Positions 3,101 through 16,595 are shown, counted from the first letter of the stretch. The stretch: DNA of 32,000 bases from Archaeoglobus fulgidus DSM 4304 (GCF_000008665.1 NC_000917.1:1-32000), one strand, 5' to 3'. The notes: generated from the sequence alone by a model not told the origin. Made by a program: numbers and translations.

Positions 3101-4213
3101 TGAAAGTACTGCTCCCAGCACAAGGCAGCGCAGGCGTCGTGGTCTTCGTTGAAATCAGACCAAAATGGGATTGAAAGCCTACGGCCGCAAATCGGACAGA
3201 GCTTATCCATCCTGGTTGAAATCAGACCAAAATGGGATTGAAAGTTTGCATCTTCACCGGCATTGTCAGCTGCGAACTCTGAGTTGAAATCAGACCAAAA
3301 TGGGATTGAAAGATAGCTCTCTGTAACTCACTTCTTCCCCATACCATGTTTCTAGTTGAAATCAGACCAAAATGGGATTGAAAGAGCATCTTCGTCTTCT
3401 TTATCCTCTTCAGGAGCTCTAAGTTGAAATCAGACCAAAATGGGATTGAAAGGAAGTTTGCGTTTGTTCCAGAAGTTTGTAGAGTGCCAGTTGAAATCAG
3501 ACCAAAATGGGATTGAAAGAATGCTAATCGGATTCTCTGGTCCATCTGCAAGTGGCAGTTGAAATCAGACCAAAATGGGATTGAAAGTGCTTCATCTTTC
3601 TCCAACACTTCTACAATCTTGACTGTTGAAATCAGACCAAAATGGGATTGAAAGAAGACTACGACTCTTGGTAATCCATCGTTGCCTCTAATCGTTGAAA
3701 TCAGACCAAAATGGGATTGAAAGGGAACCCCGTAACTGGCTGCCTTCACGGCTGCGATTACTGCTACGTTGAAATCAGACCAAAATGGGATTGAAAGATC
3801 AAGAGCCCATGCCGTCAGAGAATGCGTTGAGGAGTGTTGAAATCAGACCAAAATGGGATTGAAAGTCTGATTTTTCGGCAACAACAAACCTGAACTCAGA
3901 ATTGCGTTGAAATCAGACCAAAATGGGATTGAAAGCCTTATCTCATCCTCAGCACCATAAGGCATTTGACCCTTGTTGAAATCAGACCAAAATGGGATTG
4001 AAAGCGAGACATTAACACAATTTATTGGGCATGTCCTGACGGGTTGAAATCAGACCAAAATGGGATTGAAAGGCAGACGACGTACACTACTGGGGCGTTG
4101 TCAAGGAACAGTTGAAATCAGACCAAAATGGGATTGAAAGTAAGAACATCTCATAAACTTGTGTTGGACTCGGTAGCTCCCAAGTTGAAATCAGACCAAA
4201 ATGGGATTGAAAG
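148..4213 (+). CRISPR. CRISPR array: 60 identical 30-bp repeats (GTTGAAATCAGACCAAAATGGGATTGAAAG) and 59 unique spacers of 35-44 bp
   Basis: I located each repeat start by hand (148, 216, 284, 351, 416 ... 4111, 4184) and saw no repeat variant. The + orientation puts ATTGAAAG at the repeat 3' end, the usual 8-nt crRNA 5' handle left by Cas6 processing. The repeat has no strong hairpin but carries TTGAAA at both ends. It matches the repeat I remember from Archaeoglobus fulgidus. Confidence 0.99.
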
Positions 4214-5050: not shown

Positions 5051-6811
5051 ATGCCCCTCAGAATTGCAGTTGTGGACAGAGAACGCTGCCAGCCGAAGAA
5101 GTGCGGACAGGAGTGCGTGAAATACTGTCCTCGCGTCAGAACGGGAGACGAGACGGTAAAGATAGAAGACAAGGCCGTCATATCCGAGAATCTCTGCGTT
5201 GGATGCGGAATATGCGTCAAGAAGTGCCCGATGCACGCCATCTGGATTGTTGGTCTGCCAGAGGAGCTTGAGGGCAGGGAGGTGCACCGCTACGGCAAGA
5301 ACGGCTTCGTCCTCTACAACCTCCCCGTTCCGAGAAAGGGCTATGTGGTCGGAATTCTAGGCCCAAACGGGACGGGAAAGAGCACGGCAATCAAAATCCT
5401 TTCGGGGCAGCTCAAGCCCAACCTTGGGAAGGAGGAGGCAAGCTGGGAAGAGATATTTGACAGGTTTGCTGGAACAGAGCTTCTGGACTATCTGAAGGGG
5501 ATAAAGGAGGGGGCAATAAGAGTTAGCCAGAAACCGCAGTACATCGAAGCTATCCCTAAGGTTTACAGCGGTAAGGCGATTGAGCTGCTGAAGAGAGTTG
5601 ACGAGAGAGGGATGCTCGATGCTGTGGTTGAAAAGCTCGGCCTTGCGGAGGCAATAAAGAGAGATGTGAAGGATTTGAGCGGCGGAGAGCTTCAGAGGCT
5701 TGCTATAGCAGCCTGCATCCTCAGGGATGCAGACTTCTACTTCTTCGACGAGGTTACGAGCTACCTCGACATATACCAGCGCATTGCCGTTGCGGGAGTG
5801 ATAAGGGAGCTTGCTGCTGAAAAGACTGTTATGATAGTGGAGCACGACCTCGCCATCCTGGACATGCTTGCCGACTTCGTCCACATCACCTACGGTACTC
5901 CGGGCGTTTTTGGTGTCGTCACCAACGCGAAGGGAGCGAGAGTTGGCATAAACCAGTATCTGAGGGGCTATCTGGCTGAGGAGAACATCAGAATAAGGGA
6001 CAAGCCCATCGAGTTCGAGGTTTTCCAGCCGAGGGAAAGTGTGGGGGAGAATATCCTTGTTGAATATCCATCCTTCACCAAATCCTACGAGGGCTTCAGG
6101 CTTGAAGTTGAGGGGGGAGAGATTTATCAGGGAGAGGTTTTGGGAGTTGTAGGTTCAAACGCAACAGGCAAATCAACCTTCGTGAAGGTTCTTGCGGGAG
6201 TAATTGAGGATGACGAGAAGAAGGTTGAGCTGGATGTTAAGGTCAGCTACAAGCCCCAGTATGTTAAGGCTGATGTAAACATGCAGGTTGGGATGTTTCT
6301 GCGAAGAATAAACCCCATGATTGACAGCTCCTACTACAAAACCGAGTTTCTCAAGCCCCTGATGCTGGAAAACCTCATGGACCGCTACCTAGACGATTTG
6401 AGCGGGGGAGAGTTGCAGAGAGTCGCCATCGTCGCCTGCTTGCTGAGGGAAGCTGACCTCTACCTCCTTGACGAGCCCTCAGCCCACCTCGACGTGGAGC
6501 AGAGGACTGAGGCTGCGAGGGTCATAAGGAGGTTTGCACTAAACACGGGCAAGAGCGTTCTGGTTGTTGACCACGACATCTACCTCATTGACATGGTGAG
6601 TGACAGGTTGCTGGTCTTCGAGGGGCAGCCGGGAAAGCACGGCATAGCGAGAAGGCCGAGGGGAATGAGGGAGGGAATGAACCTCTTTCTATCGAAGCTG
6701 GGCATAACCTTCAGGAGAGACGAGGAGACAAAGAGGCCGAGAGTCAACAAGCCCGATTCGAGGCTGGACAGGGAGCAGAAGGCTGCTGGGGAGTATTACT
6801 ACTATTTCTGA
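5051..6811 (+). CDS. abcE1: ABCE1 / RNase L inhibitor homolog (ribosome-recycling ATPase)
   Basis: N-terminal di-cluster ferredoxin domain (CQPKKCGQECVKYCP; CVGCGICVKKCP). Two ABC cassettes with Walker A motifs GPNGTGKST and GSNATGKST, and two LSGGELQR signatures. Confidence 0.95.
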   Translation: MPLRIAVVDRERCQPKKCGQECVKYCPRVRTGDETVKIEDKAVISENLCVGCGICVKKCPMHAIWIVGLPEELEGREVHRYGKNGFVLYNLPVPRKGYVVGILGPNGTGKSTAIKILSGQLKPNLGKEEASWEEIFDRFAGTELLDYLKGIKEGAIRVSQKPQYIEAIPKVYSGKAIELLKRVDERGMLDAVVEKLGLAEAIKRDVKDLSGGELQRLAIAACILRDADFYFFDEVTSYLDIYQRIAVAGVIRELAAEKTVMIVEHDLAILDMLADFVHITYGTPGVFGVVTNAKGARVGINQYLRGYLAEENIRIRDKPIEFEVFQPRESVGENILVEYPSFTKSYEGFRLEVEGGEIYQGEVLGVVGSNATGKSTFVKVLAGVIEDDEKKVELDVKVSYKPQYVKADVNMQVGMFLRRINPMIDSSYYKTEFLKPLMLENLMDRYLDDLSGGELQRVAIVACLLREADLYLLDEPSAHLDVEQRTEAARVIRRFALNTGKSVLVVDHDIYLIDMVSDRLLVFEGQPGKHGIARRPRGMREGMNLFLSKLGITFRRDEETKRPRVNKPDSRLDREQKAAGEYYYYF

Positions 6812-6849
6812 ATCAGAAAATCTTATAAGGATTGTCAAAAATTTTTTAC

Positions 6850-7443
6850 ATGAAACTTTTCCACAGAATCACCATCTCCCTCTCGGAAGACGACATGAAG
6901 CTCATCGAGGAGCTGAGGAGAGATAGCGGCGACAGCCTGAGCAAGATTTTCAGGGAGGCGATTCAGCTTTACTACAACCTGCTTAAGGCTTCGAAGGCTG
7001 CAGGGGTGGATTTCAGAAAGTATTTCGCAAACGCAACACGCCTTGCCTTTCACATTAACGGAGTTGAGCAGAAGCAGTTTGCGGTCATAGACAGGGAAAT
7101 TTACAGAGTTATGCTGAAAAAGCTTCAGGAGAAGGTGCCGCCTGAGAGCATTGAAAGCGATGAGGAGTTCAGGTCTGCCGTTGCCGGGGTGGTGAAGCTT
7201 TTCGAGATTACGAGGGACAGGTGGAGTGAGTACACGGACGAGCAGAAGCTTGAGGAAATACTCACAACTATGGAGTTTGCCGGAGCCGGCACATTTGCCA
7301 GAGTGGGAGATAAAGAGTACATCTTCAACACCTATGCTGAGTCAACGGCCATAACCAAGCTTATAATTTCGTCGGTTTTGGCTTCCGCAGGCTTAAAGGT
7401 CGAGATAGACCACACTCCCGGCAAGATTTTCATAAGACTTTAG
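6850..7443 (+). CDS. Ribbon-helix-helix (CopG/Arc-like) transcriptional regulator with an uncharacterised C-terminal domain
   Basis: The N-terminus RITISLSEDDMKLIEELRRDSGDSLSKIFREAIQLYY fits a beta-strand/helix/helix RHH pattern. The start is moved to ATG 6850 (the ORF track uses TTG 6832). A TATA-like 'cttataag' at 6822-6829 lies about 25 nt upstream, which fits a leaderless mRNA. Confidence 0.6.
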   Translation: MKLFHRITISLSEDDMKLIEELRRDSGDSLSKIFREAIQLYYNLLKASKAAGVDFRKYFANATRLAFHINGVEQKQFAVIDREIYRVMLKKLQEKVPPESIESDEEFRSAVAGVVKLFEITRDRWSEYTDEQKLEEILTTMEFAGAGTFARVGDKEYIFNTYAESTAITKLIISSVLASAGLKVEIDHTPGKIFIRL

Positions 7444-7481: not shown

Positions 7482-7516
7482 GTTATGAACTGATTCATAA
7501 CAGCTTTTATCTTTAG
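7482..7516 (+). promoter_or_regulatory. Palindromic operator (GTTATGAA-N4-TTCATAAC) fused to a TATA-like box, upstream of corrinoid protein gene 1
   Basis: Perfect 8-bp inverted repeat at 7482-7489 / 7494-7501, followed by CAGC and 'ttttatcttta' (7505-7515). SD GGAGGTG at 7536-7542, ATG at 7548. Nearly the same 35-nt element recurs at 9445-9477. Confidence 0.55.
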
Positions 7517-7547: not shown

Positions 7548-8180
7548 ATGGCGGATGTTAGAAAGGAGTTCGTTCAGGCCTTGGCAGACCTCGACGAGGC
7601 AAAGACCGTAGAGCTGACAAAGAAGAGAGTTGAGAGCGGAGAGGATCCATTCACCATTCTTGAGGACGTCAGAAAGGCTACGGACATCATTGGAAAGCGC
7701 TTTGAGGAGGGAAGGTACTTCGTCTCAGACCTGATAATGGCGGGAGAAATTCTCAAGCAGGTAATGGAAATCCTAAGACCGCTGCTGGGAGAGAAGAAGG
7801 CTGAAAGCAAGGGAAAGGTCGTAATAGGAACAGTTGAAGGAGACGTCCACGACATAGGCAAGAACATTGTCATTGCGCTGCTTGAGGCTGAGGGCTTTGA
7901 AGTTGTTGATATAGGTGTTGACCAGCCCCCTGAAGCCTTTGTTGAGGCTGCAAATCAGCACAATCCGGATGTTGTTGGTCTCTCAGGCCTGCTTACCGAA
8001 GCTATAGAGAGCATGAAGAGGACGGTTGAGGCCTTAAGAAAAGCTGGCTACAAGGGCAAGATAATCATAGGAGGAGGAAGGACGAGCGAGGAGGCAAAGG
8101 AGTACACGGGAGCAGATGACTGGGCGGACGATGCCGCTGTCGGTGTGAGGAAGATCAAGGCTCTTGTGGGGGTGGAGTAG
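7548..8180 (+). CDS. mtoC: Cobalamin-binding corrinoid protein, copy 1 (MtaC/MtoC-type)
   Basis: B12-binding signature DxHxxG (GDVHDIGKNIV), followed by SGLL and IIGGG, after an N-terminal helical cap domain. The symbol is given by analogy to the Mto O-demethylase system. Confidence 0.9.
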   Translation: MADVRKEFVQALADLDEAKTVELTKKRVESGEDPFTILEDVRKATDIIGKRFEEGRYFVSDLIMAGEILKQVMEILRPLLGEKKAESKGKVVIGTVEGDVHDIGKNIVIALLEAEGFEVVDIGVDQPPEAFVEAANQHNPDVVGLSGLLTEAIESMKRTVEALRKAGYKGKIIIGGGRTSEEAKEYTGADDWADDAAVGVRKIKALVGVE

Positions 8181-8257
8181 ATGAACGCTGAGCAGCTCAT
8201 GGAGGAGAGAAGGCAGAGAATTGAGGACGTGGTAAAGGGGAAGGAGCCTGATAGGGT
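7566..8257 (+). repeat. Duplicated block A, copy 1 (partner 13511-14202, offset 5945 bp), about 98% identical
   Basis: Hand alignment found about 15 mismatches in 692 bp and no indels. The block covers almost all of the corrinoid protein gene plus the first 77 nt of the downstream methyltransferase gene. Confidence 0.9.
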
Positions 8258-9434
8258 TCCAGTGACGGGTGCAACGACCGTCTGGCATGGAAGCTACGCT
8301 GGCTACACAGCCAAAGAGGTTCTCTTCGACTACGAAAAGTGCAAGGACGCATGGCTCAAGGTTGCAAAAGATTTCGACTTCGACTCATTCACCGTCGTTG
8401 GCGGCTTGGAGGGGATGATATACACCGTTGCGTTGCTTGAGCAGCCAGACATGTCTGCAGCAGCAAGATTCATCCTCGGCCCCACTCACCTCGTCTTGCA
8501 GGATGTGTACACCAGATGGCCGGGATACGAGCTCGAAGAAAACGCCCATCCGCAGTTCATCGGCAAGGAGATAATGAAGGTTGAGGAGTACGACCAGCTA
8601 ATCGAAAACCCGCTTGAGTTCATAAACAAGGTAGCGATGCCGAGGATAAACAGAAAGCTCGCCAACGTTGGATCTGCAGAATACAACGCAGCACTTGCGA
8701 AGTATGGGGCTGAGCTGGCAAGATTCGGTGCGTTCATGGCCGATGTTTCGATGGAGCTCGCCAAGCTCGGCTATCCAACAATTCCCATGTCCTGGGCCTA
8801 CGCCCCCCTCGACCTCATCAGCGACTTTCTGAGGGACATAAAGAACATGGTCATGGACCTCTACCGCTATCCCGACAAGGTCAAGGAGGCTGTTGAAGCG
8901 GTAAAACCCCTCATAATCAAAGCGGCCGAAGTATCAGCTCCTCCAAAAGAAATCAGAAAGCAGGTCTTCGGCACTGACGTTGTGGAGTGCTTCTACCCGC
9001 TCCACCTGAACGAGTATCTGAGTCCGAAGCTGTACAACGAGTTCTACTGGCCCTACCTCAACGAGGTTCTTCACAAGGTTGCCGACATGGGACAGGTGAA
9101 CTTCGTGCTCTTTGAGGGCAGACACGATGCACACCTCGAAACGCTGTTAGAAGCTCCGAAGAAGAAGGTCGTCGGAGTTTTCGAGAAAACAGACCCAAGA
9201 AAGGTGAGAGAGGTTCTGGGAGACCACGTAATCCTCGTCTCAGGGCCTCCGAACTCTCTGCTGATAGGAGGCACACCGCAGAAGGTGGAGGAGTACATGA
9301 AGAGCCTTCTGGAGGACTGCAAGGAAGGCGGAATGATGATATGGCCGGGAGTTGATGGAGGTATTTCGAGGGATGCAAGGCCTGAGAATGTAAAGGCTGT
9401 GATCGAAGCCGTGAAGAAGTACGGAACTTACTAA
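8181..9434 (+). CDS. mtoB: UroD-fold (MtaA/CmuA superfamily) methyltransferase, copy 1; candidate aryl-methyl-ether:corrinoid O-demethylase
   Basis: The start ATG abuts the corrinoid gene stop codon. The length (417 aa) and the ...SPKLYNEFYWPYLNEVL...VLFEGRHDAH... region resemble the uroporphyrinogen-decarboxylase-like methyltransferase fold. Genomic pairing with a corrinoid protein supports the call. The symbol is by analogy. Confidence 0.75.
   Translation: MNAEQLMEERRQRIEDVVKGKEPDRVPVTGATTVWHGSYAGYTAKEVLFDYEKCKDAWLKVAKDFDFDSFTVVGGLEGMIYTVALLEQPDMSAAARFILGPTHLVLQDVYTRWPGYELEENAHPQFIGKEIMKVEEYDQLIENPLEFINKVAMPRINRKLANVGSAEYNAALAKYGAELARFGAFMADVSMELAKLGYPTIPMSWAYAPLDLISDFLRDIKNMVMDLYRYPDKVKEAVEAVKPLIIKAAEVSAPPKEIRKQVFGTDVVECFYPLHLNEYLSPKLYNEFYWPYLNEVLHKVADMGQVNFVLFEGRHDAHLETLLEAPKKKVVGVFEKTDPRKVREVLGDHVILVSGPPNSLLIGGTPQKVEEYMKSLLEDCKEGGMMIWPGVDGGISRDARPENVKAVIEAVKKYGTY
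8988..9434 (+). repeat. Duplicated block B, copy 1 (partner 14930-15376, offset 5942 bp), about 93% identical
   Basis: Hand alignment found about 32 mismatches in 447 bp, mostly at third-codon positions. The block covers the C-terminal ~148 codons of both UroD-fold genes. Confidence 0.85.
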
Positions 9435-9440
9435 TTTTTT
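9435..9440 (+). terminator. Oligo-T tract immediately after the mtoB-1 stop codon
   Basis: T6 directly follows TAA (9432-9434). Archaeal termination commonly uses oligo-T. A new promoter-like element follows within 10 nt. Confidence 0.35.
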
Positions 9441-9444
9441 CTTA

Positions 9445-9477
9445 TTTATGAACCAGTTCATAACAGCCTTTATTTAG
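9445..9477 (+). promoter_or_regulatory. Second copy of the palindromic operator (TTATGAAC-N2-GTTCATAA) plus TATA-like box, upstream of MFS transporter 1
   Basis: tttatgaaccagttcataacagcctttatttag compared with gttatgaactgattcataacagcttttatctttag at 7482-7516. Half-sites, the CAGC linker and the TTTAT box are the same. The distance to the start codon is also similar (about 62 versus 65 nt). Confidence 0.55.
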
Positions 9478-9507
9478 CACTCATCTCTGCTTAAGAGGGG
9501 ATTCGCG

Positions 9508-10770
9508 GTGGTAGAGCGAAGGCTGGTGTATCCGGTTTCAGCAGCAATACTGGCGATGTTTGCAATGTTCTCCCTCATCTGGAGCCAGTTCTACCCCTTC
9601 ATAATGAAAACCTATTCGCTGGATGCAGTTTCTCCCGTTGCTCTTGCAGCGTCCTTCTCCGCTGCTGGAAACCTTCTGACACAGGTTCTGGCAGGTTTCA
9701 TCGCAGACAGGCGCGGACCGAAGCCCACAATGGCTGTTGCAGGATTGCTCTACCTCGCAGGAACAACGATAATCTCCATGATGTTCTCCCACGCGTCCTG
9801 GGAGAATGCGAGGCTCTACTGGTATGCGGGGGCCCTCACAATAGGTGCCGGAATAGGGATGTACATCGGTACTCTTCCGGTGGTTATAAGCAGGTGGTAT
9901 CCTGACGCTCCGGGAAAAGCTTACGGTATCGCCCTCTTCGGGCAGTACCTTTCTCCAGTTCTCATTTCGCCTCTTGCGGCCTACCTCATAACCAGCTACG
10001 GGCTGAAAGAGGCCTTCACTTTTCTTGGAGCTGCGATTTTCACAGTGATTTACATAATCGGTGTTGGAGTGTGGAGAACCCCGCCCAGAGAGATGGCAGC
10101 CACCTTCGCCAACGGTGGAAAGACCGTTTCCCTCAAGGAGTCAATAAGGGATTTAAGATTCTGGATTCTTTTCACTGTAATGTTCTCCACGGCTATCGGA
10201 TGGTTTCTGATTATGATGAACATCGCAACTATAGTTGTGGAGGGGCTCGGAAAGGCAGGTCTGGATGTTGAGTACGTTGCCTCATCCTTCGTTCCGCTTT
10301 TCATGTCCGTAGCGGCGGTTGGAAACGCCCTTGGGGCTTACTTCTGGGGAGTTGTGAACGACAGGATGGGCGGGCCGCTGAGAACGCTCCCAATCGTTTA
10401 CGCTCTCGCGGGAGTGATGATCTTTGCTTTTTACCTCAGCTACACCAGCCCCTCGCTCATTCTTCTGACGGGATGCCTGCTTTACTTCTCGCTCGCTGGG
10501 GAGCCTACAGTCCACTTTGCCGCTGTCCCGACCTTCTTCGGGAACGAGCACGTTGCAAAGCTAACCTCAATCCTTAACACTTCCGTGGCCTCTTCGGCCA
10601 TAATCGGGCCGTTCATCGGTGCATTCATCAGAGATGTTTTAGGGTCATACTTCTTTTCGCTTGCAATTGCGGCAGTACTTCACTTCTTTGCTGTCGGCAT
10701 TGTGTTGGCTGGAAGAAAATACGCAGGAGGTGGTGTTAATGTTCAGGTTCGAGAACCAGAAGGTGTTTGA
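9508..10770 (+). CDS. MFS transporter 1 (12-TM type, OFA-like)
   Basis: Highly hydrophobic 420-aa product. MFS loop motif GFIADRRGPK. GTG start. Confidence 0.85.
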   Translation: MVERRLVYPVSAAILAMFAMFSLIWSQFYPFIMKTYSLDAVSPVALAASFSAAGNLLTQVLAGFIADRRGPKPTMAVAGLLYLAGTTIISMMFSHASWENARLYWYAGALTIGAGIGMYIGTLPVVISRWYPDAPGKAYGIALFGQYLSPVLISPLAAYLITSYGLKEAFTFLGAAIFTVIYIIGVGVWRTPPREMAATFANGGKTVSLKESIRDLRFWILFTVMFSTAIGWFLIMMNIATIVVEGLGKAGLDVEYVASSFVPLFMSVAAVGNALGAYFWGVVNDRMGGPLRTLPIVYALAGVMIFAFYLSYTSPSLILLTGCLLYFSLAGEPTVHFAAVPTFFGNEHVAKLTSILNTSVASSAIIGPFIGAFIRDVLGSYFFSLAIAAVLHFFAVGIVLAGRKYAGGGVNVQVREPEGV

Positions 10771-11611
10771 GATAGGAGGAGTAAAAATAGGCGGAGAGGT
10801 TGGAGAGAATCCGACGGTGCTGATTGGAAGCATCTTTTACGGAAAGCACAAAATCGTAGAGGACGAGAAGAGGGGAATATTTGACAGAGAGGGGGCTGAG
10901 GCGCTAATCAGGGAAATGGAGGATCTGAGCGACAAAACAGGCAATCCGGGATTGCTTGATGTTGTGGGGATGAGCGAGGAGGCGATGATAAAGTACATCG
11001 ACTTCGTTGCTGACGTCACCGACAGCCCCTTCCTCATCGATTCTGCCATCGCGGACATAAAGCTCGCAGGAGTTAAGCATGCAGATGAGGTGGGGCTTTC
11101 CGACAGGGTAATCTACAACTCAATCTCGCCCGAATCGAAAGACGCCGAGATAGAAGCGCTTGCTAACAGCAAAGTTGAAGCGGCAGTGGTGCTCGCATAC
11201 ACCTACAACGTTATCAGCAGCGCTGCAAGGCTTCAGGCTCTGGAAAAGGCCATGGCGAAGGTTGAAAAGGCGGGGATAACCAAGCCAATCGTTGACACGT
11301 TTGTAATGGACGTTCCGAGCCTTCCCGCTGCGGCGAAGGCGGCAATTGACATAAAGAGGAAATACGGGCTTCCAACGGGCTCCGGTGCGCACAACGCGAT
11401 AGGAAGCTGGAAAGGATTTAAGAACATGTTCGGGAAGGAGGCGGAGAAGGCGGCGACAATCGTTGCTGTTACGATGCAGATCATCCTCGGCTCGGACTTC
11501 GTGCTCTACGGCCCAATTGAGGACTGCAGAGAGGTGTTCCCGGCGATGTACACAATAGACACAGCATACAAGTACTTCAGGCGCACGAAGGACTGGATAG
11601 AGATGGTCTGA
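10739..11611 (+). CDS. mtoA: MtrH-family methyl-corrinoid:pterin (H4MPT/H4F) methyltransferase
   Basis: MFRFENQKVFEIGGVKIGGEVGENPTVLIGSIFY is the typical MtrH-domain N-terminus. The start is moved to ATG 10739, with SD GGAGGTG at 10727-10733. The ORF-track N-terminal extension is a hydrophobic read-through of the MFS gene. The gene overlaps the MFS 3' end by 32 nt. Confidence 0.85.
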   Translation: MFRFENQKVFEIGGVKIGGEVGENPTVLIGSIFYGKHKIVEDEKRGIFDREGAEALIREMEDLSDKTGNPGLLDVVGMSEEAMIKYIDFVADVTDSPFLIDSAIADIKLAGVKHADEVGLSDRVIYNSISPESKDAEIEALANSKVEAAVVLAYTYNVISSAARLQALEKAMAKVEKAGITKPIVDTFVMDVPSLPAAAKAAIDIKRKYGLPTGSGAHNAIGSWKGFKNMFGKEAEKAATIVAVTMQIILGSDFVLYGPIEDCREVFPAMYTIDTAYKYFRRTKDWIEMV

Positions 11612-11612
11612 A

Positions 11613-13406
11613 ATGGTGTCGGTGACCTTCGAGCCGGTCGGAAAGAAGGTTGAGGATGAGCCGGACACAATACTCGAAATAGCGAGGAGGAACGGAGTTC
11701 TCATCAGGTCCGACTGCGGAGGCAAGGGAGTTTGCGGGAAGTGCAAGGTTGTCGTGGTTGACTACAGGGGAAGTTTGAGCGATATTACCGATCATGAGAG
11801 AAAGCACCTGATCGAGGAGGAGATAAGCAAAGGATACAGGCTTGCCTGTCAGGCGAGGGTTGAGGAGGGCAGGGCGACGATTTTCATACCACCGGAAAGC
11901 AGGCTCGAAAGGAGGAAGGTTGCGGGGCTTACGATAGAAAAAGAAGTCGAGCTGAATCCTGCGGTCAGAAAGGTTTACGCGGAAATTCAGCCTCCGAGCA
12001 TTGAAGACCAGCTTCCCGACTACGACAGGTTGACGAGGGCTCTGGGAGACTTCAGCCTCGATTTGGAAACGCTATCCGAAATGCCGAAGCTTTTGAGGGA
12101 GGCTGAGTGGAGGGTAACGGCCACCTTCTGGAATGGCAGACTCATTGACCTTGAGAAGGGAGACGTTAGCGACAGGTGTTACGGCGTGGCCGTTGACGTC
12201 GGATCGTCCAAAATCATCTGCCACCTCGTCGATTTGAAGAGCGGTGAGACCATCGCAACTGGCTACTCCGACAATCCGCAGGTTGCGTACGGAGAGGACA
12301 TAGTTTCGAGAATAACCTACGCCTCGAAGTCCGCTGAAAACAGAAAGAGGCTCCAGACGGTTGTCGTTGAGACCGTGAACCAGATAATAGCTGAGCTCTG
12401 CAACGAAAGCGGTGTTGACTTACGGCACGTTTACGAGGTGATGATTGTTGGCAACTCCGTGATGCACCACCTGTTTTTCGGCATCGAACCGAGGTTCATC
12501 GGTGTCTCTCCCTTCACTCCCGCCGTCAGGAGGGGTGTGAGCTTTCCAGCAGAAGATGTTGGGCTGAGAATCAACAGGAAGGGATACGTGAGCTCACTGC
12601 CTCTCGTAGCGGGATTTGTCGGTGCGGATGCGGTTGCAAACATTGCCATAACAGGAATACACAAAGCTGAGGAGATTTCGATGGTTATCGACATCGGAAC
12701 GAACACCGAGATTGTCATCGGCAACAGAGAGAAGCTTGGTGTGTGCTCTGCCCCTTCTGGTCCAGCTTTTGAGGGAGCCCACATCACCTTCGGCATGAAG
12801 GCCATTAGCGGGGCGATAGACAGCGTGAGAATTGAGAGGGATGAGGTCATATACACCACCATCGACAACGCCAAGGCGAAGGGGCTGTGCGGAACGGGGC
12901 TTATCGACCTCATCGCAGAGCTCTACAGGAACGGAATAATCAACAGAAACGGCAAATTCGTAAAGGACCACAGCAGAATAATCGTTGATGGGGTTCCTAA
13001 GTTCGTCGTTGCCAAGGCGGAAGAGACTGAGTTCGGAAAGCCGATAACGGTGAGCGAGAAGGACATAAACGAGCTTCTGATGGCCAAAGGGGCGATAAAG
13101 TCGGGATGGATGATTCTTTCGGAAAGGTTGGGGATTGAGCCCGACAAAATCGAGAGAATTTACCTTGCCGGATCCTTCGGAAGGCACATTAACGTCGAAA
13201 ATGCGAAGGTCATCGGGTTGCTGCCCGACATACCTTCGGAGAAGATAACCTTCGCCGGCGACACGGCAGTTGGCGGAGCGAAGATGGCTCTGAAATCGGT
13301 CAGAGTGAGGGATGAGATGGAAGACGTTGTCAGCAGGCTGAATTACGTAGAGCTTTCGGTTGAGAAGAACTTTTACAGCGTTTTTGTTCGTGCAATACCA
13401 ATTTAA
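11613..13406 (+). CDS. mtoD: RACo-type ATP-dependent reductive activator of corrinoid proteins (2Fe-2S ferredoxin + ASKHA/DUF4445 domain)
   Basis: N-terminal plant-type ferredoxin motif CGGKGVCGKCKV...ACQARV. A large C-terminal part has ASKHA-like glycine motifs (VDVGSSKI, IDIGTNTE, GSFG). It starts 1 nt after the mtoA stop codon. Confidence 0.85.
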   Translation: MVSVTFEPVGKKVEDEPDTILEIARRNGVLIRSDCGGKGVCGKCKVVVVDYRGSLSDITDHERKHLIEEEISKGYRLACQARVEEGRATIFIPPESRLERRKVAGLTIEKEVELNPAVRKVYAEIQPPSIEDQLPDYDRLTRALGDFSLDLETLSEMPKLLREAEWRVTATFWNGRLIDLEKGDVSDRCYGVAVDVGSSKIICHLVDLKSGETIATGYSDNPQVAYGEDIVSRITYASKSAENRKRLQTVVVETVNQIIAELCNESGVDLRHVYEVMIVGNSVMHHLFFGIEPRFIGVSPFTPAVRRGVSFPAEDVGLRINRKGYVSSLPLVAGFVGADAVANIAITGIHKAEEISMVIDIGTNTEIVIGNREKLGVCSAPSGPAFEGAHITFGMKAISGAIDSVRIERDEVIYTTIDNAKAKGLCGTGLIDLIAELYRNGIINRNGKFVKDHSRIIVDGVPKFVVAKAEETEFGKPITVSEKDINELLMAKGAIKSGWMILSERLGIEPDKIERIYLAGSFGRHINVENAKVIGLLPDIPSEKITFAGDTAVGGAKMALKSVRVRDEMEDVVSRLNYVELSVEKNFYSVFVRAIPI

Positions 13407-13504
13407 TGTCAAATTTGTTTTACATCAAATCATTTATTTTTTTGAGTCAATTAACCTTAATAGAGTCATTTTTCATCTTCTCCAAGCTTCACGGAGGTGA
13501 TACC

Positions 13505-14125
13505 TTGGAAGAGTTCGTTCAGGCCTTGGCAGACCTCGACGAGGCAAAGACCGTAGATCTGACAAAGAAGAGAGTTGATAGCGGAGAGGATCCATTCACC
13601 ATTCTTGAGGACGTCAGAAAGGCAACTGACATCATTGGAAAGCGCTTTGAGGAGGGAAGGTACTTCGTCTCAGACCTGATAATGGCGGGAGAAATTCTCA
13701 AGCAGGTAATGGAAATCCTAAGACCGCTGCTGGGAGAGAAGAAGGCTGAAAGCAAGGGAAAGGTTGTGATAGGCTCGGTGGAGGGTGATGTCCACGACAT
13801 AGGCAAGAACATTGTCATTGCGCTGCTTGAGGCTGAGGGCTTTGAAGTTGTTGATATAGGTGTTGACCAGCCCCCTGAAGCCTTTGTTGAGGCTGCAAAT
13901 CAGCACAATCCGGATGTTGTTGGTCTCTCAGGCCTGCTTACCGAAGCTATAGAGAGCATGAAGAGGACGGTTGAGGCCTTAAGAAAAGCTGGCTACAAGG
14001 GCAAGATAATCATAGGCGGTGGAAGGACGAGCGAGGAGGCAAAGGAGTACACGGGAGCAGATGACTGGGCGGACGATGCCGCTGTCGGTGTGAGGAAGAT
14101 CAAGGCTCTTGTGGGGGTGGAGTAG
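13505..14125 (+). CDS. mtoC: Cobalamin-binding corrinoid protein, copy 2
   Basis: Only 3 aa differ from copy 1 over the ~204 aligned aa. Same DxHxxG motif. The start is reassigned to TTG 13505, with SD GGAGGTGA at 13493-13500. The ORF-track start at 13406 adds an AT-rich, Phe/Ile/Ser-rich extension that has no counterpart in copy 1. Confidence 0.85.
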   Translation: MEEFVQALADLDEAKTVDLTKKRVDSGEDPFTILEDVRKATDIIGKRFEEGRYFVSDLIMAGEILKQVMEILRPLLGEKKAESKGKVVIGSVEGDVHDIGKNIVIALLEAEGFEVVDIGVDQPPEAFVEAANQHNPDVVGLSGLLTEAIESMKRTVEALRKAGYKGKIIIGGGRTSEEAKEYTGADDWADDAAVGVRKIKALVGVE

Positions 14126-14202
14126 ATGAACGCTGAGCAGCTCATGGAGGAGAGAAGGCAGAGAATTGAGGACGTGGTAAAGGGGAAGGAGCCTGATAGG
14201 GT
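13511..14202 (+). repeat. Duplicated block A, copy 2 (partner 7566-8257)
   Basis: See copy 1. Identity ends abruptly after gatagggt (8257 / 14202). Confidence 0.9.
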
Positions 14203-15376
14203 GCCAATATACGCTTCCACTTCTCTGCTTTTTCACGTAAGGTACGCTGGCTACAAGGCGAAAGAGGCTCTGTTCGACTACGGAAAGTTCAAGGAGAGTG
14301 TTATAAAGACGGCAAAAGACTTCGACTTCGACATTATGAGGGCTTCATACGGCCTTGAGGGCATACTCTTCGTTCTTGCCTTCCACAACGCTCCGGAAAT
14401 AGCCAAAGGTATGAGGTTTCTCACCGCCCACTACCACAAAATTCTTGGCGACGTTTACACCAAGTGGCCGGGAATGGAGCTCAGCGACGACGCGCATCCG
14501 CAGTTCATTGGAAAGCCCGTCATGAACGTTGACGAATACGATGCATTTACAGAAAATCCGCTTGAGTTCATAAACGAGGTTGCCCTTCCGAGAGCCTGTC
14601 AGAACATGAAAAGCGCCGCTGACAGAAACGCGGTGATAGCGAGGCTTGGAGCGGAGGTTGTTAGATACACAAACACCATACAGGAGCTGGGAAGGGAGCT
14701 TGCAGAGCTTGGCTATCCTTCTTTCGCCACATCCTGGAGCTACGCTCCGCTCGACCTCATCGGCGATTATCTGAGGGATATCAAAAACGTGGCCATCGAC
14801 CTTTACAGAGTTCCAGAGAAGGTTAAATCCGCCACAGAGGCCGTAACGCCGCTTTTCATCGAGATGGCGGAGAGGACGGGCATGCCGCCAAAGGTGGCAA
14901 GAGAAATCTTCGGCAGCGATGTCGTGCTCTGCTTCTACCCCCTCCACCTCACCGAGTACCTGAATCCGAAGCTGTACAACGAGTACTACTGGCCCTACCT
15001 CAACGAGGTTCTTCACAAGGTTGCCGATATGGGGCAGGTGAACTTCGTGCTCTTTGAGGGCAGACACGATGCGCACCTCGAAACGCTGTTAGAAGCTCCA
15101 AAGAAGAAGGTCGTTGGAGTTTTCGAGAAAACCGACCCAAGAAAGGTGAGAGAGGTTCTCGGAGACCACGTAATCCTCGTGTCAGGTCCTCCGAACTCTC
15201 TGCTGATAGGAGGCACACCTCAGAAGGTGGAGGAGTACATGAAGAGCCTTCTGGAGGACTGCAAGGAGGGCGGGATGATGGTCTATCCGGGTGTGGACGG
15301 AGGTATTTCGAGGGACGCAAGGCCTGAGAACGTTAAGGCTGTGATCGAAGCCGTGAAGAAGTACGGAAGGTACTGA
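14126..15376 (+). CDS. mtoB: UroD-fold methyltransferase, copy 2 (mosaic paralog of 8181-9434)
   Basis: The first 27 aa are identical to copy 1. Roughly residues 28-270 are only about half identical. The last ~148 aa are nearly identical. Confidence 0.75.
   Translation: MNAEQLMEERRQRIEDVVKGKEPDRVPIYASTSLLFHVRYAGYKAKEALFDYGKFKESVIKTAKDFDFDIMRASYGLEGILFVLAFHNAPEIAKGMRFLTAHYHKILGDVYTKWPGMELSDDAHPQFIGKPVMNVDEYDAFTENPLEFINEVALPRACQNMKSAADRNAVIARLGAEVVRYTNTIQELGRELAELGYPSFATSWSYAPLDLIGDYLRDIKNVAIDLYRVPEKVKSATEAVTPLFIEMAERTGMPPKVAREIFGSDVVLCFYPLHLTEYLNPKLYNEYYWPYLNEVLHKVADMGQVNFVLFEGRHDAHLETLLEAPKKKVVGVFEKTDPRKVREVLGDHVILVSGPPNSLLIGGTPQKVEEYMKSLLEDCKEGGMMVYPGVDGGISRDARPENVKAVIEAVKKYGRY
14930..15376 (+). 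repeat. Duplicated block B, copy 2 (partner 8988-9434)
   Basis: See copy 1. Confidence 0.85.
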
Positions 15377-15395: not shown

Positions 15396-16595
15396 ATGGG
15401 TGAAAATTCGAAGTTTCTTCCCTGGATGGTTGCAACTGGAGCGATGCTGGCTTTCACGGTGAGGTGGCTGCACTATCTCTATTCCTTCACCGCTCCGCAG
15501 ATTATGGACGAGTTCGGTGTTCCTGCTGCGACCGCCTCGCTGATGGTTACCGCGAACTCCATAGGTATGGTTGTTGGAGGGTTTTTGATAGGCGTTCTCT
15601 GCGACAAAATAGGTGTGAGGGTAACTCTGAGCATTGCCGCAGTTGTGGTGGGTGTTTTCACGATTTTCGTCGGTTACGCCCAGAGCATATACATGGCCAT
15701 TGTGATGTTCGGAATTGCGGGGCTTTTCTCCTGGCTTAGCTCCGCATTTCCGAAAATTGCGAGAGCTTGGTTCCCGCCTTCGCTGTATTCCACCGCAAAC
15801 AGCTACATGTTTCTCGGCTTCAGGCTGTCGGCTCTGTTCATGGGGCCTGTGGTTGCATCAATAGTAATCACAAGCGGATGGAGGAGCGCCTGGATTGACA
15901 TGGGTATTCTGTGCATTCTGATGGGTGTTCTCGCCTTTGCGCTCATAAGGGACAAGAAGGATGTCCAGGTTGAGCAGAGCAAAGTTTCGGTAGGGGAGGT
16001 TTTCAAATACAGGGACGCGTGGATTCTCTTCGGAGCCTACTCGATGTGGCTTATAGGCTGCGTCATGTACGTGGTCTTCACCATAACCTACCTGCAGAAG
16101 GGACTTCAGCTCGACCCGATGACATCGGGCTGGCTCTGGAGCCTGCTTCAGCTCGTCGGAATAATCTCCATGTACACCCTGCTGCCCCTCTCCGACCTGC
16201 TCGCTTCCAAGGGCATAATCAGCAGAAAGAACTTTGCGGGGATAATGTTCCTTGTGGCATCCGTGGCGTTCTTCATCTTTGGATCGCTGAAGCCCGGAAT
16301 GCCGATAACCTACTACGCAGCTTCCATCGTGCTGGTGGGGCTTGGAGCGCTGCTATTAACCACGATACCAGCACCGCTTATTTCCGAGCGCTTCCCGCCG
16401 AACATCGCAGGAACGGCTACGGGCTTCATAACAGCAGTTGGGCAGTGGCCCTTCATAGTGATGCCGCCCATCGCGGGAATGCTTGCAGCCACCTACGGAT
16501 GGGGCTTCATCTACCAGGTTTCGGCTCCCTTCATAGCCATAGGCGGGATGATTCTGATACTCCTCATGAAGCCCCCGCAGAAGGTCTCAGCTTAA
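15396..16595 (+). CDS. MFS transporter 2
   Basis: Hydrophobic 399-aa product with SD GGAGGTGA 4 nt before the ATG. It shares the AWFPP loop motif and N-terminal pattern with the MFS gene at 28539-29720. Confidence 0.85.
   Translation: MGENSKFLPWMVATGAMLAFTVRWLHYLYSFTAPQIMDEFGVPAATASLMVTANSIGMVVGGFLIGVLCDKIGVRVTLSIAAVVVGVFTIFVGYAQSIYMAIVMFGIAGLFSWLSSAFPKIARAWFPPSLYSTANSYMFLGFRLSALFMGPVVASIVITSGWRSAWIDMGILCILMGVLAFALIRDKKDVQVEQSKVSVGEVFKYRDAWILFGAYSMWLIGCVMYVVFTITYLQKGLQLDPMTSGWLWSLLQLVGIISMYTLLPLSDLLASKGIISRKNFAGIMFLVASVAFFIFGSLKPGMPITYYAASIVLVGLGALLLTTIPAPLISERFPPNIAGTATGFITAVGQWPFIVMPPIAGMLAATYGWGFIYQVSAPFIAIGGMILILLMKPPQKVSA

What the first reader, a model, noticed from the sequence alone, without database searches (positions are those of the whole stretch)
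7566..15376. Mosaic paralogs: near-identical ends and a diverged centre in the two corrinoid-protein/methyltransferase pairs
**The pattern.** The two mtoC-mtoB pairs lie about 5.94 kb apart and have three zones.
- Block A (7566-8257 vs 13511-14202) is about 98% identical at the DNA level. It ends abruptly 77 nt into mtoB.
- The next ~730 bp (8258-8987 vs 14203-14929) are so diverged that the proteins are only about half identical, and copy 2 is one codon shorter.
- Block B (8988-9434 vs 14930-15376) returns to about 93% identity, with mostly synonymous differences.

**Interpretation.** Such sharp transitions are the signature of gene conversion or recombination around a cassette that is kept different. 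The conserved parts probably contact shared partners: the corrinoid protein, and through it MtoA and MtoD. The variable centre is the obvious candidate for a substrate-specificity region.

**Two levels of identity.** Blocks at 98% and 93% imply at least two conversion events of different age.
Basis: seen in the sequence. Interest (0 to 1): 0.7.

Follow-up and report, generated by a model that had tools for sequence, protein, structure and literature searches.

The report
Gene conversion between duplicated demethylase genes
Two neighbouring copies of a corrinoid-protein/O-demethylase gene pair in Archaeoglobus fulgidus keep overwriting each other's ends by gene conversion while their middle stays very different; the process is well supported and still going on, but it is a known kind of process.

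Summary
Block A (7566-8257 vs 13511-14202) is 97.8% identical. The centre is 51% identical at protein level, with dS about 1.7. Block B is 93.1% identical, with dS 0.27.

The window is the A. fulgidus VC-16 mto cluster (AF_0006-13). Low synonymous divergence, four-fold-site tests, permutation tests and conflicting trees all point to gene conversion, not protein constraint alone.

- **Strain evidence.** VC-16 mtoB1 carries a 7-site patch copied from mtoB2. A metagenome strain's mtoB2 carries a tract of at least 160 nt in the mtoB1 state.
- **Other genomes.** Two other Archaeoglobales MAGs show the same end-homogenised, centre-diverged pattern, with different breakpoints.
- **Structure.** The centre covers barrel strands β1-β3 and the large insertion between them. 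In the solved homologue CdmB, extensions in this part of the barrel form poorly conserved substrate tunnels.

So the centre is a reasonable candidate for substrate specificity, but this is untested. The claim that the conserved ends contact shared partners is also untested, and a Methermicoccus control weakens it.

Concerted evolution of corrinoid methyltransferase pairs is already described in Methanosarcinales. This is a new, clean member of a known kind.

The parts
7548..8180 (+). mtoC1 (AF_0006), corrinoid protein, 210 aa
   Evidence: Pfam B12-binding and B12-binding_2; named in PMC8359953
8181..9434 (+). mtoB1 (AF_0007), O-demethylase methyltransferase of the UroD family, 417 aa
   Evidence: Pfam URO-D. 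100% identical to AAB91225.1. Its centre groups with the B1 clade at 100% bootstrap.
7566..8257 (+). Block A, copy 1: homogenised tract covering mtoC1 from codon 7 and the first 77 nt of mtoB1
   Evidence: 97.8% identical to 13511-14202, with identical runs of 227, 182 and 137 nt. mtoC dS is 0.09.
7820..7844 (+). 25-nt patch holding 9 of block A's 15 differences (partner 13765-13789), just upstream of the DxHxxG cobalamin-binding motif
   Evidence: The same in VC-16 and DSM 8774. Its origin could not be polarised with orthologues.
8258..8987 (+). Diverged centre of mtoB1 (codons 27-269): barrel strands β1-β3, the insertion between β2 and β3, and the helices before β4
   Evidence: 51% aa identity to copy 2, dS about 1.7. 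Secondary structure from the AF2 model, pLDDT 96.6. No variable nucleotide among the eight A. fulgidus-type mtoB1 DNA sequences compared.
8988..9431 (+). Block B, copy 1: homogenised 3' third of mtoB1 (codons 270-417, strands β4-β8)
   Evidence: 93.1% identical to 14930-15373/6, dS 0.27. pS to orthologues is at least 0.61.
9055..9071 (+). VC-16-specific short conversion patch, mtoB2 to mtoB1: 7 sites, causing S292Y and F297L
   Evidence: VC-16 mtoB1 matches all mtoB2 copies here. DSM 8774, strain X, L052 and L053 mtoB1 carry the other state. The nearest orthologue P0125 also has S/F.
9508..10770 (+). MFS transporter 1 (AF_0008), lies between the repeats
   Evidence: Pfam MFS_1
10739..11611 (+). 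mtoA (AF_0009), MtrH-type methyltransferase
   Evidence: Pfam MtrH, E 9e-133
11613..13406 (+). mtoD (AF_0010), RACo-type corrinoid activase
   Evidence: Pfam RACo domains and Fer2
13505..14125 (+). mtoC2 (AF_0011). Most likely a 206-aa product from TTG 13505, preceded by a GGAGGTGA ribosome-binding site.
   Evidence: Sequence. A 206-aa RefSeq form exists in the cluster. Pfam.
13511..14202 (+). Block A, copy 2
14126..15376 (+). mtoB2 (AF_0012), paralogous O-demethylase methyltransferase, 416 aa
   Evidence: Pfam URO-D. Its centre groups with the B2 clade (L011, L012, P0023, P0020) at 98% bootstrap.
14203..14929 (+). Diverged centre of mtoB2
   Evidence: No closer relative than 58% among 5.8 billion proteins. 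Only 2 variable sites among three strains.
14930..15373 (+). Block B, copy 2
15028..15187 (+). Segment of mtoB2 that carries the mtoB1 state at 9 consecutive informative sites in a 99.6%-identical metagenome strain (L043). This is a polymorphic conversion tract of 160-234 nt.
   Evidence: mtoB1 of the same sample (L051) has the ordinary B1 states.
15396..16595 (+). MFS transporter 2 (AF_0013). Linked to B2-type mtoB in other genomes, where it is 87% identical.

Best explanation
**What it is.** The window holds the A. fulgidus methoxydotrophy (mto) cluster, with two anciently diverged mtoC-mtoB modules as direct repeats 5.9 kb apart.

**Mechanism.**
- Non-reciprocal homologous recombination (gene conversion) repeatedly copies short to medium tracts, from 17 nt to several hundred nt, between the two modules, in both directions.
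- Tracts stop outward where homology ends: the first codons of mtoC and the stop codon of mtoB.
- Tracts stop inward at the middle of mtoB. Identity there is about 60%, with no identical run longer than 18 nt, so strand exchange cannot start or continue.
- High identity favours further conversion, so the ends stay homogenised (block A dS 0.09, block B dS 0.27). The centre keeps the old B1/B2 divergence (dS saturated).
- The centre encodes barrel strands β1-β3 and the large insertion. It most likely gives the two enzymes different methoxy-aromatic substrate ranges, while both use nearly identical MtoC proteins plus one MtoA and one MtoD.

**Shown:** the mosaic, the low synonymous divergence of the ends, the tree conflict, tracts that are polymorphic between strains, and recurrence in other genomes.

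**Inferred:** the recombination machinery, divergence as the barrier, and the functional meaning of the centre.
For: 1. **Zones.** dS is 0.09 in mtoC, 0.07 in the mtoB N-terminus, 1.7 in the centre and 0.27 in the C-terminal zone.
2. **Four-fold sites.** 31/54 differ in the centre against 15/66 in the C-terminal zone, p=1.4e-4. Between-genome orthologue pairs show no such contrast, p=0.5-0.86.
3. **Formal tests.** The permutation fragment test gives p<0.0005 for within-genome pairs and is not significant for orthologues. Max chi-square breakpoints fall at codons 26 and 271.
4. **Closer in-genome than to orthologues.** In the C-terminal zone AfB1-AfB2 pS is 0.23, against at least 0.61 to every orthologue.
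5. **Tree conflict.** In the centre tree the B1 clade excluding AfB2 has 100% bootstrap and the B2 clade 98%. In the C-terminal tree AfB1 and AfB2 are sisters (63%) and the B1 clade collapses.
6. **Strains.** VC-16 mtoB1 has the B2 state at 7 sites (9055-9071). Strain X mtoB2 has the B1 state at 9 consecutive sites (15028-15187), plus 15331/15334. Protein variants P0126 and P0128 swap residues 387-388 in opposite directions.
7. **Independent lineages.** In MAGs JASFYJ01 and CAYZIW01 the B1-type and B2-type contigs share an identical mtoC 3' end plus the first 27-33 nt of mtoB. The last 188 nt of mtoB are 100% identical in CAYZIW01 and nearly so in JASFYJ01, up to the stop codon.
8. **Negative control.** Methermicoccus mtoB1 and mtoB2 show no homogenised ends.
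9. **Ancestral linkage.** B2-MFS2 linkage is conserved in L011, L012 and L046, so module 2 is not a recent copy of module 1.
10. **Structure.** An AF2 model (pLDDT 96.6) places β1, β2, a 130-residue insertion and β3 in the centre, and β4-β8 in block B. The CdmB structure and paper cover the tunnels.
Against: - The C-terminal third is also the best conserved part across the whole family: majority-residue frequency 0.71 against 0.57 in the centre. Methanomicrobiales homologues are about 78% identical there against about 50% in the centre. So part of the protein-level mosaic is ordinary constraint.
- The strain X and MAG sequences come from short-read metagenome assemblies, which can make chimeras at repeats. 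L047 and L049 are such hybrids. However, the VC-16 vs DSM 8774 difference rests on two finished genomes. Identical runs in block B are at most 47 nt.
- No test separates selection from sequence divergence as the reason the centre escapes conversion.
- Substrate ranges of MtoB1 and MtoB2 are unknown.
Confidence: 0.88

Rival explanations
1. Purifying selection alone. The ends are near-identical because MtoC, the MtoB N-terminal helix and the C-terminal half-barrel are under extreme constraint, for example from shared partners. No DNA exchange is involved.
For: The C-terminal third is the most conserved part of the family. MtoC is 77-94% identical across Archaeoglobaceae.
Against: - Selection on the protein does not preserve four-fold degenerate sites. 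These differ at 10-23% in the ends against 57% in the centre.
- Orthologues are saturated at synonymous sites in the same zones.
- B1 orthologues evolve equally fast in the centre and the C-terminal zone.
- Methermicoccus paralogues that share one MtoC are only 63% identical in the C-terminal zone.
Confidence: 0.03
2. Recent duplication plus cassette replacement. The whole mtoC-mtoB pair was duplicated recently. The middle of one copy was then replaced by recombination with a foreign, diverged mtoB allele, using the conserved ends as homology arms.
For: - No homologue closer than 58% to the AfB2 centre exists in the protein database.
- Several distinct centre types (B1, AfB2, L011-type, P0020) sit between similar ends in Archaeoglobaceae.
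Against: - B2-type mtoB is linked to the same MFS2 (87% aa) and the same downstream hbd/thiolase genes in other genomes. The centre plus its 3' neighbour is therefore the resident, ancestral part, and identity stops exactly at the stop codon.
- The AfB2 centre belongs to a B2 clade with 98% support.
- Small tracts in both directions are still polymorphic among strains. One replacement event does not explain this.
- Block A and block B have different ages.
Confidence: 0.06
3. Selection-maintained mosaic. Conversion could spread through the centre, but convertants are removed because losing one specificity is costly. Homogenised ends are favoured because they keep both MtoB enzymes compatible with one MtoC/MtoA/MtoD set.
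For: - The centre is invariant or nearly so among strains.
- Type-specific fixed residues lie at or near the C-terminal ends of β1-β4: W35F, T71R, M203T, N277T.
- T277 of B2 survives inside the fuzzy edge of block B.
- The W/Y388 patch is retained in L006/L011.
Against: - Inner breakpoints differ between lineages: codons 26/271 against about 10/356.
- The centre lacks identical runs longer than 18 nt, which is enough by itself to block recombination.
- No dN/dS or population test was possible with so few B2-type sequences.
Confidence: 0.3

Closest known systems
Concerted evolution of methyltransferase/corrinoid-protein paralogue pairs (mtmB-mtmC, mtbB-mtbC) in Methanosarcinales (PMC6053082), and partial long-lasting conversion of mtrA (PMC4632066)
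   Same: Paralogous MT1 plus corrinoid-protein gene pairs of a C1 methyl-transfer pathway in Euryarchaeota. They are homogenised within genomes by recurrent gene conversion.
   Different: - A different enzyme family: UroD-fold O-demethylase, not pyrrolysine methylamine methyltransferases.
- A different order: Archaeoglobales.
- Conversion here covers only the two ends and leaves a 730-bp centre at about 50% aa identity.
- Tracts are caught as polymorphisms between strains.
Mto methoxydotrophy system of Methermicoccus shengliensis and A. fulgidus (PMC8630106, PMC8359953)
   Same: This is that cluster (AF_0006-AF_0013): MtoB O-demethylase, MtoC corrinoid protein, MtoA (MtrH-like), MtoD (RACo activase) and MFS transporters.
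   Different: - The A. fulgidus paper names only AF_0006/0007 as MtoC/MtoB. A text search of it for duplicat-, paralog- or identical finds nothing.
- Methermicoccus has one mtoC followed by two mtoB genes, with no homogenised ends.
CdmB chloromethane methyltransferase of Acetobacterium dehalogenans (PDB 9rui; PMC13222342)
   Same: Closest solved homologue (E 4e-62 over residues 8-417). It is a TIM barrel with extensions between the first three strands. These form the dimer interface and poorly conserved substrate tunnels. That region corresponds to the variable centre here.
   Different: CdmB acts on haloalkanes and does not convert methoxy-aromatics. No structure of an MtoB or of an MtoB-MtoC complex is held.
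Short-patch, discontinuous conversion tracts in hyperthermophilic archaea (Sulfolobus acidocaldarius genetics; recalled from my own knowledge, not checked here)
   Same: Very short and discontinuous tracts: a 17-nt patch with 7 changes, and several separate patches in strain X.
   Different: Those are laboratory marker-exchange experiments in a crenarchaeon. This is natural paralogue conversion in a euryarchaeon.

Membership tests
Interparalogue gene conversion / concerted evolution | Paralogues within a genome are more similar to each other than to orthologues in related genomes, in the affected region only | tested here: met
   C-terminal zone pS is 0.23 within the genome and at least 0.61 to all orthologues. 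In the centre it is 0.67 against 0.70-0.89.
Interparalogue gene conversion / concerted evolution | Reduced divergence at neutral (synonymous, four-fold) sites, not only at the protein level | tested here: met
   Four-fold sites differ at 9/93 (mtoC) and 15/66 (C-terminal zone) against 31/54 (centre), p=1.4e-4
Interparalogue gene conversion / concerted evolution | Statistically significant shared fragments and breakpoints (GENECONV or max chi-square type tests) | tested here: met
   Own implementation: p<0.0005, breakpoints at codons 26 and 271. Orthologue controls are not significant.
Interparalogue gene conversion / concerted evolution | Phylogenetic conflict between converted and unconverted segments | tested here: met
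   Centre: B1 clade 100%, B2 clade 98%. C-terminal zone: AfB1+AfB2 sisters at 63% and B1 clade at 0%. The C-terminal protein tree is weakly resolved.
Interparalogue gene conversion / concerted evolution | Individual tracts visible as donor-state polymorphisms among close strains | tested here: met
   VC-16 patch 9055-9071, strain X tract 15028-15187, and variants P0126 and P0128
Mto corrinoid-dependent O-demethylase system | UroD-family MT1, B12-binding corrinoid protein, MtrH-type MT2 and RACo activase encoded together | tested here: met
   Pfam hits; AF2 model with UroD fold
Mto corrinoid-dependent O-demethylase system | Induced on, and active with, methoxylated aromatics | not testable with these tools
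   The literature reports AF_0006-13 upregulated on 2-methoxyphenol (PMC8359953). Activity of MtoB2 has not been reported. Reads in blocks A and B would map to both copies.
Programmed diversity-generating cassette systems (DGR, antigenic-variation cassettes) | The variable region is hypervariable among close strains and is served by a dedicated template or enzyme | tested here: not met
   The centre has 0 variable nucleotides among eight mtoB1 DNA sequences and 2 among three mtoB2 sequences. None of the ten cluster genes scanned against Pfam gave a reverse-transcriptase or recombinase hit, and no template-like extra copy of the centre appears in the repeat scan.

The most novel reading that the evidence does not exclude
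The homogenised ends are not just a by-product. They act as standing homology arms that let Archaeoglobaceae shuffle or import specificity-determining centres, and conversion keeps every MtoB variant compatible with a single MtoC/MtoA/MtoD set. This would be a natural modular system for evolving new O-demethylase substrate ranges. At least four centre types (B1, AfB2, L011-type, P0020) sit between similar ends, and the hybrid contigs L047 and L049 might reflect real amplification of the 5.9-kb unit.
Probability: 0.12. Interest if true: 0.65.

Novelty: new member of a known kind. Interest (0 to 1): 0.4.

Why it matters
- **A natural chimera experiment.** MtoB1 and MtoB2 differ almost only in residues 27-269. 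Any difference in substrate range therefore maps to that segment, which gives clear borders for engineering anaerobic O-demethylases.
- **Live conversion in a hyperthermophilic archaeon.** The tracts are short, patchy, bidirectional and polymorphic among strains.
- **Practical consequences.**
  - RNA-seq reads cannot be assigned uniquely between AF_0006 and AF_0011, or between the ends of AF_0007 and AF_0012.
  - Metagenome assemblies break or mis-join at block A.
  - Trees built from whole MtoB or MtoC sequences mix two histories.

Tried and rejected
- **Constraint-only explanation:** rejected by the four-fold sites, the orthologue controls and the Methermicoccus control.
- **Recent duplication plus foreign cassette:** judged unlikely from B2-MFS2 synteny, the B2 clade and the polymorphic tracts.
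- **Search for a donor of the AfB2 centre:** nothing closer than 58%.
- **Hypervariable or programmed cassette:** the centre is stable among strains.
- **GC-biased conversion:** GC3 of the blocks is not elevated.
- **Polarising block A's 15 differences with orthologues:** uninformative, because the sites are saturated.
- **MtoC phylogeny to see which copy was overwritten:** MtoC is too conserved (77-94%) to tell.
- **Foldseek against PDB:** only UroD-level matches, because 9rui post-dates that library. The sequence search found it.
- **Kreher et al. 2010** (N-terminus controls MT I substrate spectrum): not held, so only its title could be used.
- **3-D distances of variable residues to the active-site cleft:** not possible, because the structure tool returns no coordinates. 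Mapping is at the level of secondary-structure elements only.

Full report
**What the window is.** The region is the methoxydotrophy (mto) cluster of Archaeoglobus fulgidus VC-16, AF_0006-AF_0013. MtoB1 is 100% identical to AAB91225.1 on the 2,178,400-bp genome. The gene order, from Pfam, is:
- ABCE1-like ATPase, 5051-6811
- RHH regulator, 6832-7443
- mtoC1, 7548-8180
- mtoB1, 8181-9434
- MFS1, 9508-10770
- mtoA (MtrH type), about 10739-11611
- mtoD (RACo activase), 11613-13406
- mtoC2, most likely from TTG 13505 to 14125
- mtoB2, 14126-15376
- MFS2, 15396-16595

Welte et al. showed that this cluster is induced on 2-methoxyphenol. A text search of their paper for duplicat-, paralog- or identical found nothing on the relationship of the two pairs (PMC8359953).

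- Block A is 97.8% identical over 692 nt. It ends 77 nt into mtoB after a 182-nt identical run.
- The centre is 51% identical at protein level.
- Block B is 93.1% identical.

Nei-Gojobori estimates are:

| Zone | dS | dN |
|---|---|---|
| mtoC | 0.09 | 0.006 |
| mtoB codons 1-26 | 0.07 | 0 |
| mtoB codons 27-269 | about 1.7 | 0.41 |
| mtoB codons 270-417 | 0.27 | 0.02 |

The outer limits coincide with the coding unit. Block A starts at codon 7 of mtoC1 and codon 3 of mtoC2. Block B ends at the last sense codon, with stop TAA in one copy and TGA in the other. The flanks beyond are unrelated.

**Conversion, not constraint.** Across the whole MtoB family the C-terminal third is the best conserved part. 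Methanomicrobiales homologues are about 78% identical there and about 50% in the centre. Column conservation is 0.71 against 0.57. Protein-level mosaicism alone therefore proves nothing. Neutral sites decide the question.
- **Four-fold sites.** In codons with the same amino acid, 31/54 differ in the centre, 15/66 in the C-terminal zone (p=1.4e-4) and 9/93 in mtoC.
- **Orthologue controls.** Between-genome pairs (AfB1-L001, AfB1-L006, AfB2-L011) show no centre vs C-terminal contrast, p=0.5-0.86.
- **Equal rates among B1 orthologues.** Non-synonymous divergence is the same in the centre (0.09-0.14) and the C-terminal zone (0.05-0.13). The centre is therefore not intrinsically loose.
- **Closer in-genome than to orthologues.** AfB1-AfB2 pS in the C-terminal zone is 0.23, against at least 0.61 to every orthologue.
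- **Formal tests.** A GENECONV-like permutation test gives p<0.0005. Max chi-square puts the breakpoints at codons 26 and 271. Orthologue controls are not significant.
- **Tree conflict.** In the centre, the B1 clade without AfB2 has 100% bootstrap, and AfB2 joins L011/L012/P0023/P0020 at 98%. In the C-terminal zone, AfB1 and AfB2 are sisters (63%) and the B1 clade disappears.
- **Negative control.** The adjacent mtoB1 and mtoB2 of Methermicoccus share a single mtoC. They are only 63% identical in the C-terminal zone, with low third-position identity throughout.

**Conversion caught in progress.** Three A. fulgidus-type genomes could be compared: VC-16, DSM 8774 (L050, CP006577, 99.7% identical), and a metagenome strain X represented by L051 (mtoB1) and L043 (mtoB2) from one JGI sample.
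- VC-16 mtoB1 differs from all other mtoB1 copies at seven sites within 17 nt (9055-9071). At all seven it carries the state of every mtoB2. This is a short B2-to-B1 tract that changed two residues, S292Y and F297L. The nearest orthologue keeps S/F.
- Strain X mtoB2 carries the B1 state at nine consecutive informative sites (15028-15187), at 15331/15334, and at three isolated positions. Its own mtoB1 is ordinary.
- Protein variants from other data sets swap residues 387-388. P0126 is a B1 with VY, and P0128 is a B2 with IW.
- Block A's 15 differences are the same in VC-16 and DSM 8774. Its last full homogenisation therefore predates their split.

Several events of different age, in both directions, are thus documented.

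**The pattern recurs elsewhere.** In two Archaeoglobales MAGs, the B1-type and B2-type mtoB lie at the starts of different contigs (JASFYJ01: L006 and L011; CAYZIW01: L008 and L012).
- The contigs begin with 127 nt and 55 nt, respectively, of identical sequence. This covers the mtoC 3' end plus the first 27-33 nt of mtoB, after which they diverge sharply. That is the signature of an assembly break at a collapsed repeat.
- The last 188 nt of mtoB are 100% identical in L008/L012 and nearly so in L006/L011. Identity again ends at the stop codon, TAA vs TGA.
- Breakpoints there fall at codons about 10 and 356, not 26 and 271.

The phenomenon is therefore recurrent, but the borders are not fixed.

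**History of the two modules.**
- Most Archaeoglobaceae loci carry only RHH-mtoC-mtoB1-MFS1-mtoA-mtoD.
- The B2-type gene is linked to MFS2 (87% identical) in L011 and L012.
- In L046 it forms a stand-alone mtoC-mtoB-MFS module next to the same hbd/thiolase genes that follow it in A. fulgidus.
- Module 2 is therefore old and resident. Its ends, and its mtoC, have been overwritten.
- No closer relative of the AfB2 centre than 58% exists in the protein collection.

**Why the centre escapes.** The longest identical run in the centre is 18 nt. Block A has runs of 137-227 nt and block B has runs of 32-47 nt. Divergence alone can therefore stop strand exchange. Selection against loss of a specificity may add to this, but it was not testable. 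GC3 shows no sign of biased conversion.

**What the centre encodes.**
- An AlphaFold2 model of MtoB1 (pLDDT 96.6) is a UroD-type barrel. β1 is at residues 28-32, β2 at 69-72 and β3 at 203-205, with a 130-residue helical insertion between β2 and β3. β4-β8 lie at 269-387.
- The centre therefore equals β1-β3 plus the insertion, and block B equals β4-β8.
- The closest solved homologue, CdmB (9rui, E 4e-62), is described as a dimeric TIM barrel. Its extensions between the first three strands form the dimer interface and hydrophobic substrate tunnels with poorly conserved lining (PMC13222342).
- Nine residues are fixed differently between the B1 and B2 clades, and eight lie in the centre. W35F, T71R, M203T and N277T sit at or just after barrel strands. 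That is where TIM-barrel active sites lie (general knowledge).

Even so, substrate specificity remains an inference.

**Comparison with what is known.** Recurrent concerted evolution of MT1/corrinoid pairs (mtmBC, mtbBC) in Methanosarcinales and partial conversion of mtrA have been published (PMC6053082, PMC4632066). The present case is a new member of that kind. It involves a different enzyme family and order, conversion is confined to both ends, and tracts are visible between strains.

**Verdict.** The gene-conversion reading is supported, and the functional readings are plausible but untested. Interest is moderate.

Noticed in passing
window 148-4213: CRISPR array with 60 exact copies of the 30-nt repeat GTTGAAATCAGACCAAAATGGGATTGAAAG. 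The same region in DSM 8774 (L050) aligns at only about 75%, so spacer content differs between the two strains.
   Followed up: partly
window 7483-7501 and 9446-9464; also L002 9298-9313, L017 9298-9313, L010 2610-2625, L046 7070-7085, L054 5866-5881: A 19-bp palindrome, TTATGAAC-N3-GTTCATAAC, lies about 60 nt upstream of mtoC1 and again upstream of MFS1 (0.01 matches expected by chance). The same core lies upstream of mtoC in other Archaeoglobaceae, in a Jordarchaeales locus, and in front of the stand-alone B2-type module of L046. It is absent upstream of mtoC2 and MFS2 here. It is probably the operator of the adjacent RHH regulator, which suggests pair 2 lost its own control region when it was placed after mtoD.
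   Followed up: partly
L047 1-2615 and L049 1-2534 (equivalent to window 12765-13510, then block A, then 8258 onward): Two metagenome contigs read mtoD 3' end, then mtoC2 5' flank, then mtoB1. Inside block A they switch from C2 to C1 states at different points (between 7682 and 7820, and between 7844 and 8072). This is either chimeric assembly across the repeat or a real tandem amplification or circle of the 5945-bp unit.
   Followed up: partly
L043, L048, L051, L052, L053, L006, L008, L011, L012 (contig ends): Nearly all short-read metagenome contigs of this locus start or stop inside block A. The 5.4-5.5-kb contigs L051-L053 span exactly from one repeat to the other.
   Followed up: yes
window 13406-13510: The 239-aa ORF annotated for mtoC2 (AF_0011) starts at the mtoD stop codon. 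A GGAGGTGA ribosome-binding site at about 13490-13500 and a TTG at 13505 give a 206-aa product that lines up with mtoC1. A 206-aa RefSeq form exists.
   Followed up: partly
window 10661-10770: The longest mtoA ORF starts at TTG 10661, but the MtrH match and the orthologues begin at ATG 10739. This overlaps the end of MFS1 by 32 nt.
   Followed up: no
L057 6049-9254 (Methermicoccus shengliensis): One mtoC is followed by two mtoB genes that show no homogenised 3' end (C-terminal zone 63% aa, low third-position identity). The first 26 residues are 85% identical, which may reflect constraint or an old small tract.
   Followed up: partly
window 9326-9356 / 15268-15298 (MtoB residues 382-392): A patch around I387-W388 (B1) vs V387-Y388 (B2) stays type-specific in VC-16, DSM 8774 and L006/L011. 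It is swapped in P0126 and P0128 and erased in L008/L012. It may be a functionally relevant residue pair just after strand β8.
   Followed up: partly
window 7548-8180 vs 13505-14125, and PMC8359953: Because mtoC1/mtoC2 and the ends of mtoB1/mtoB2 are near-identical, short RNA-seq reads map to both copies. Published expression values for AF_0006/0007 against AF_0011/0012 may be distorted.
   Followed up: no
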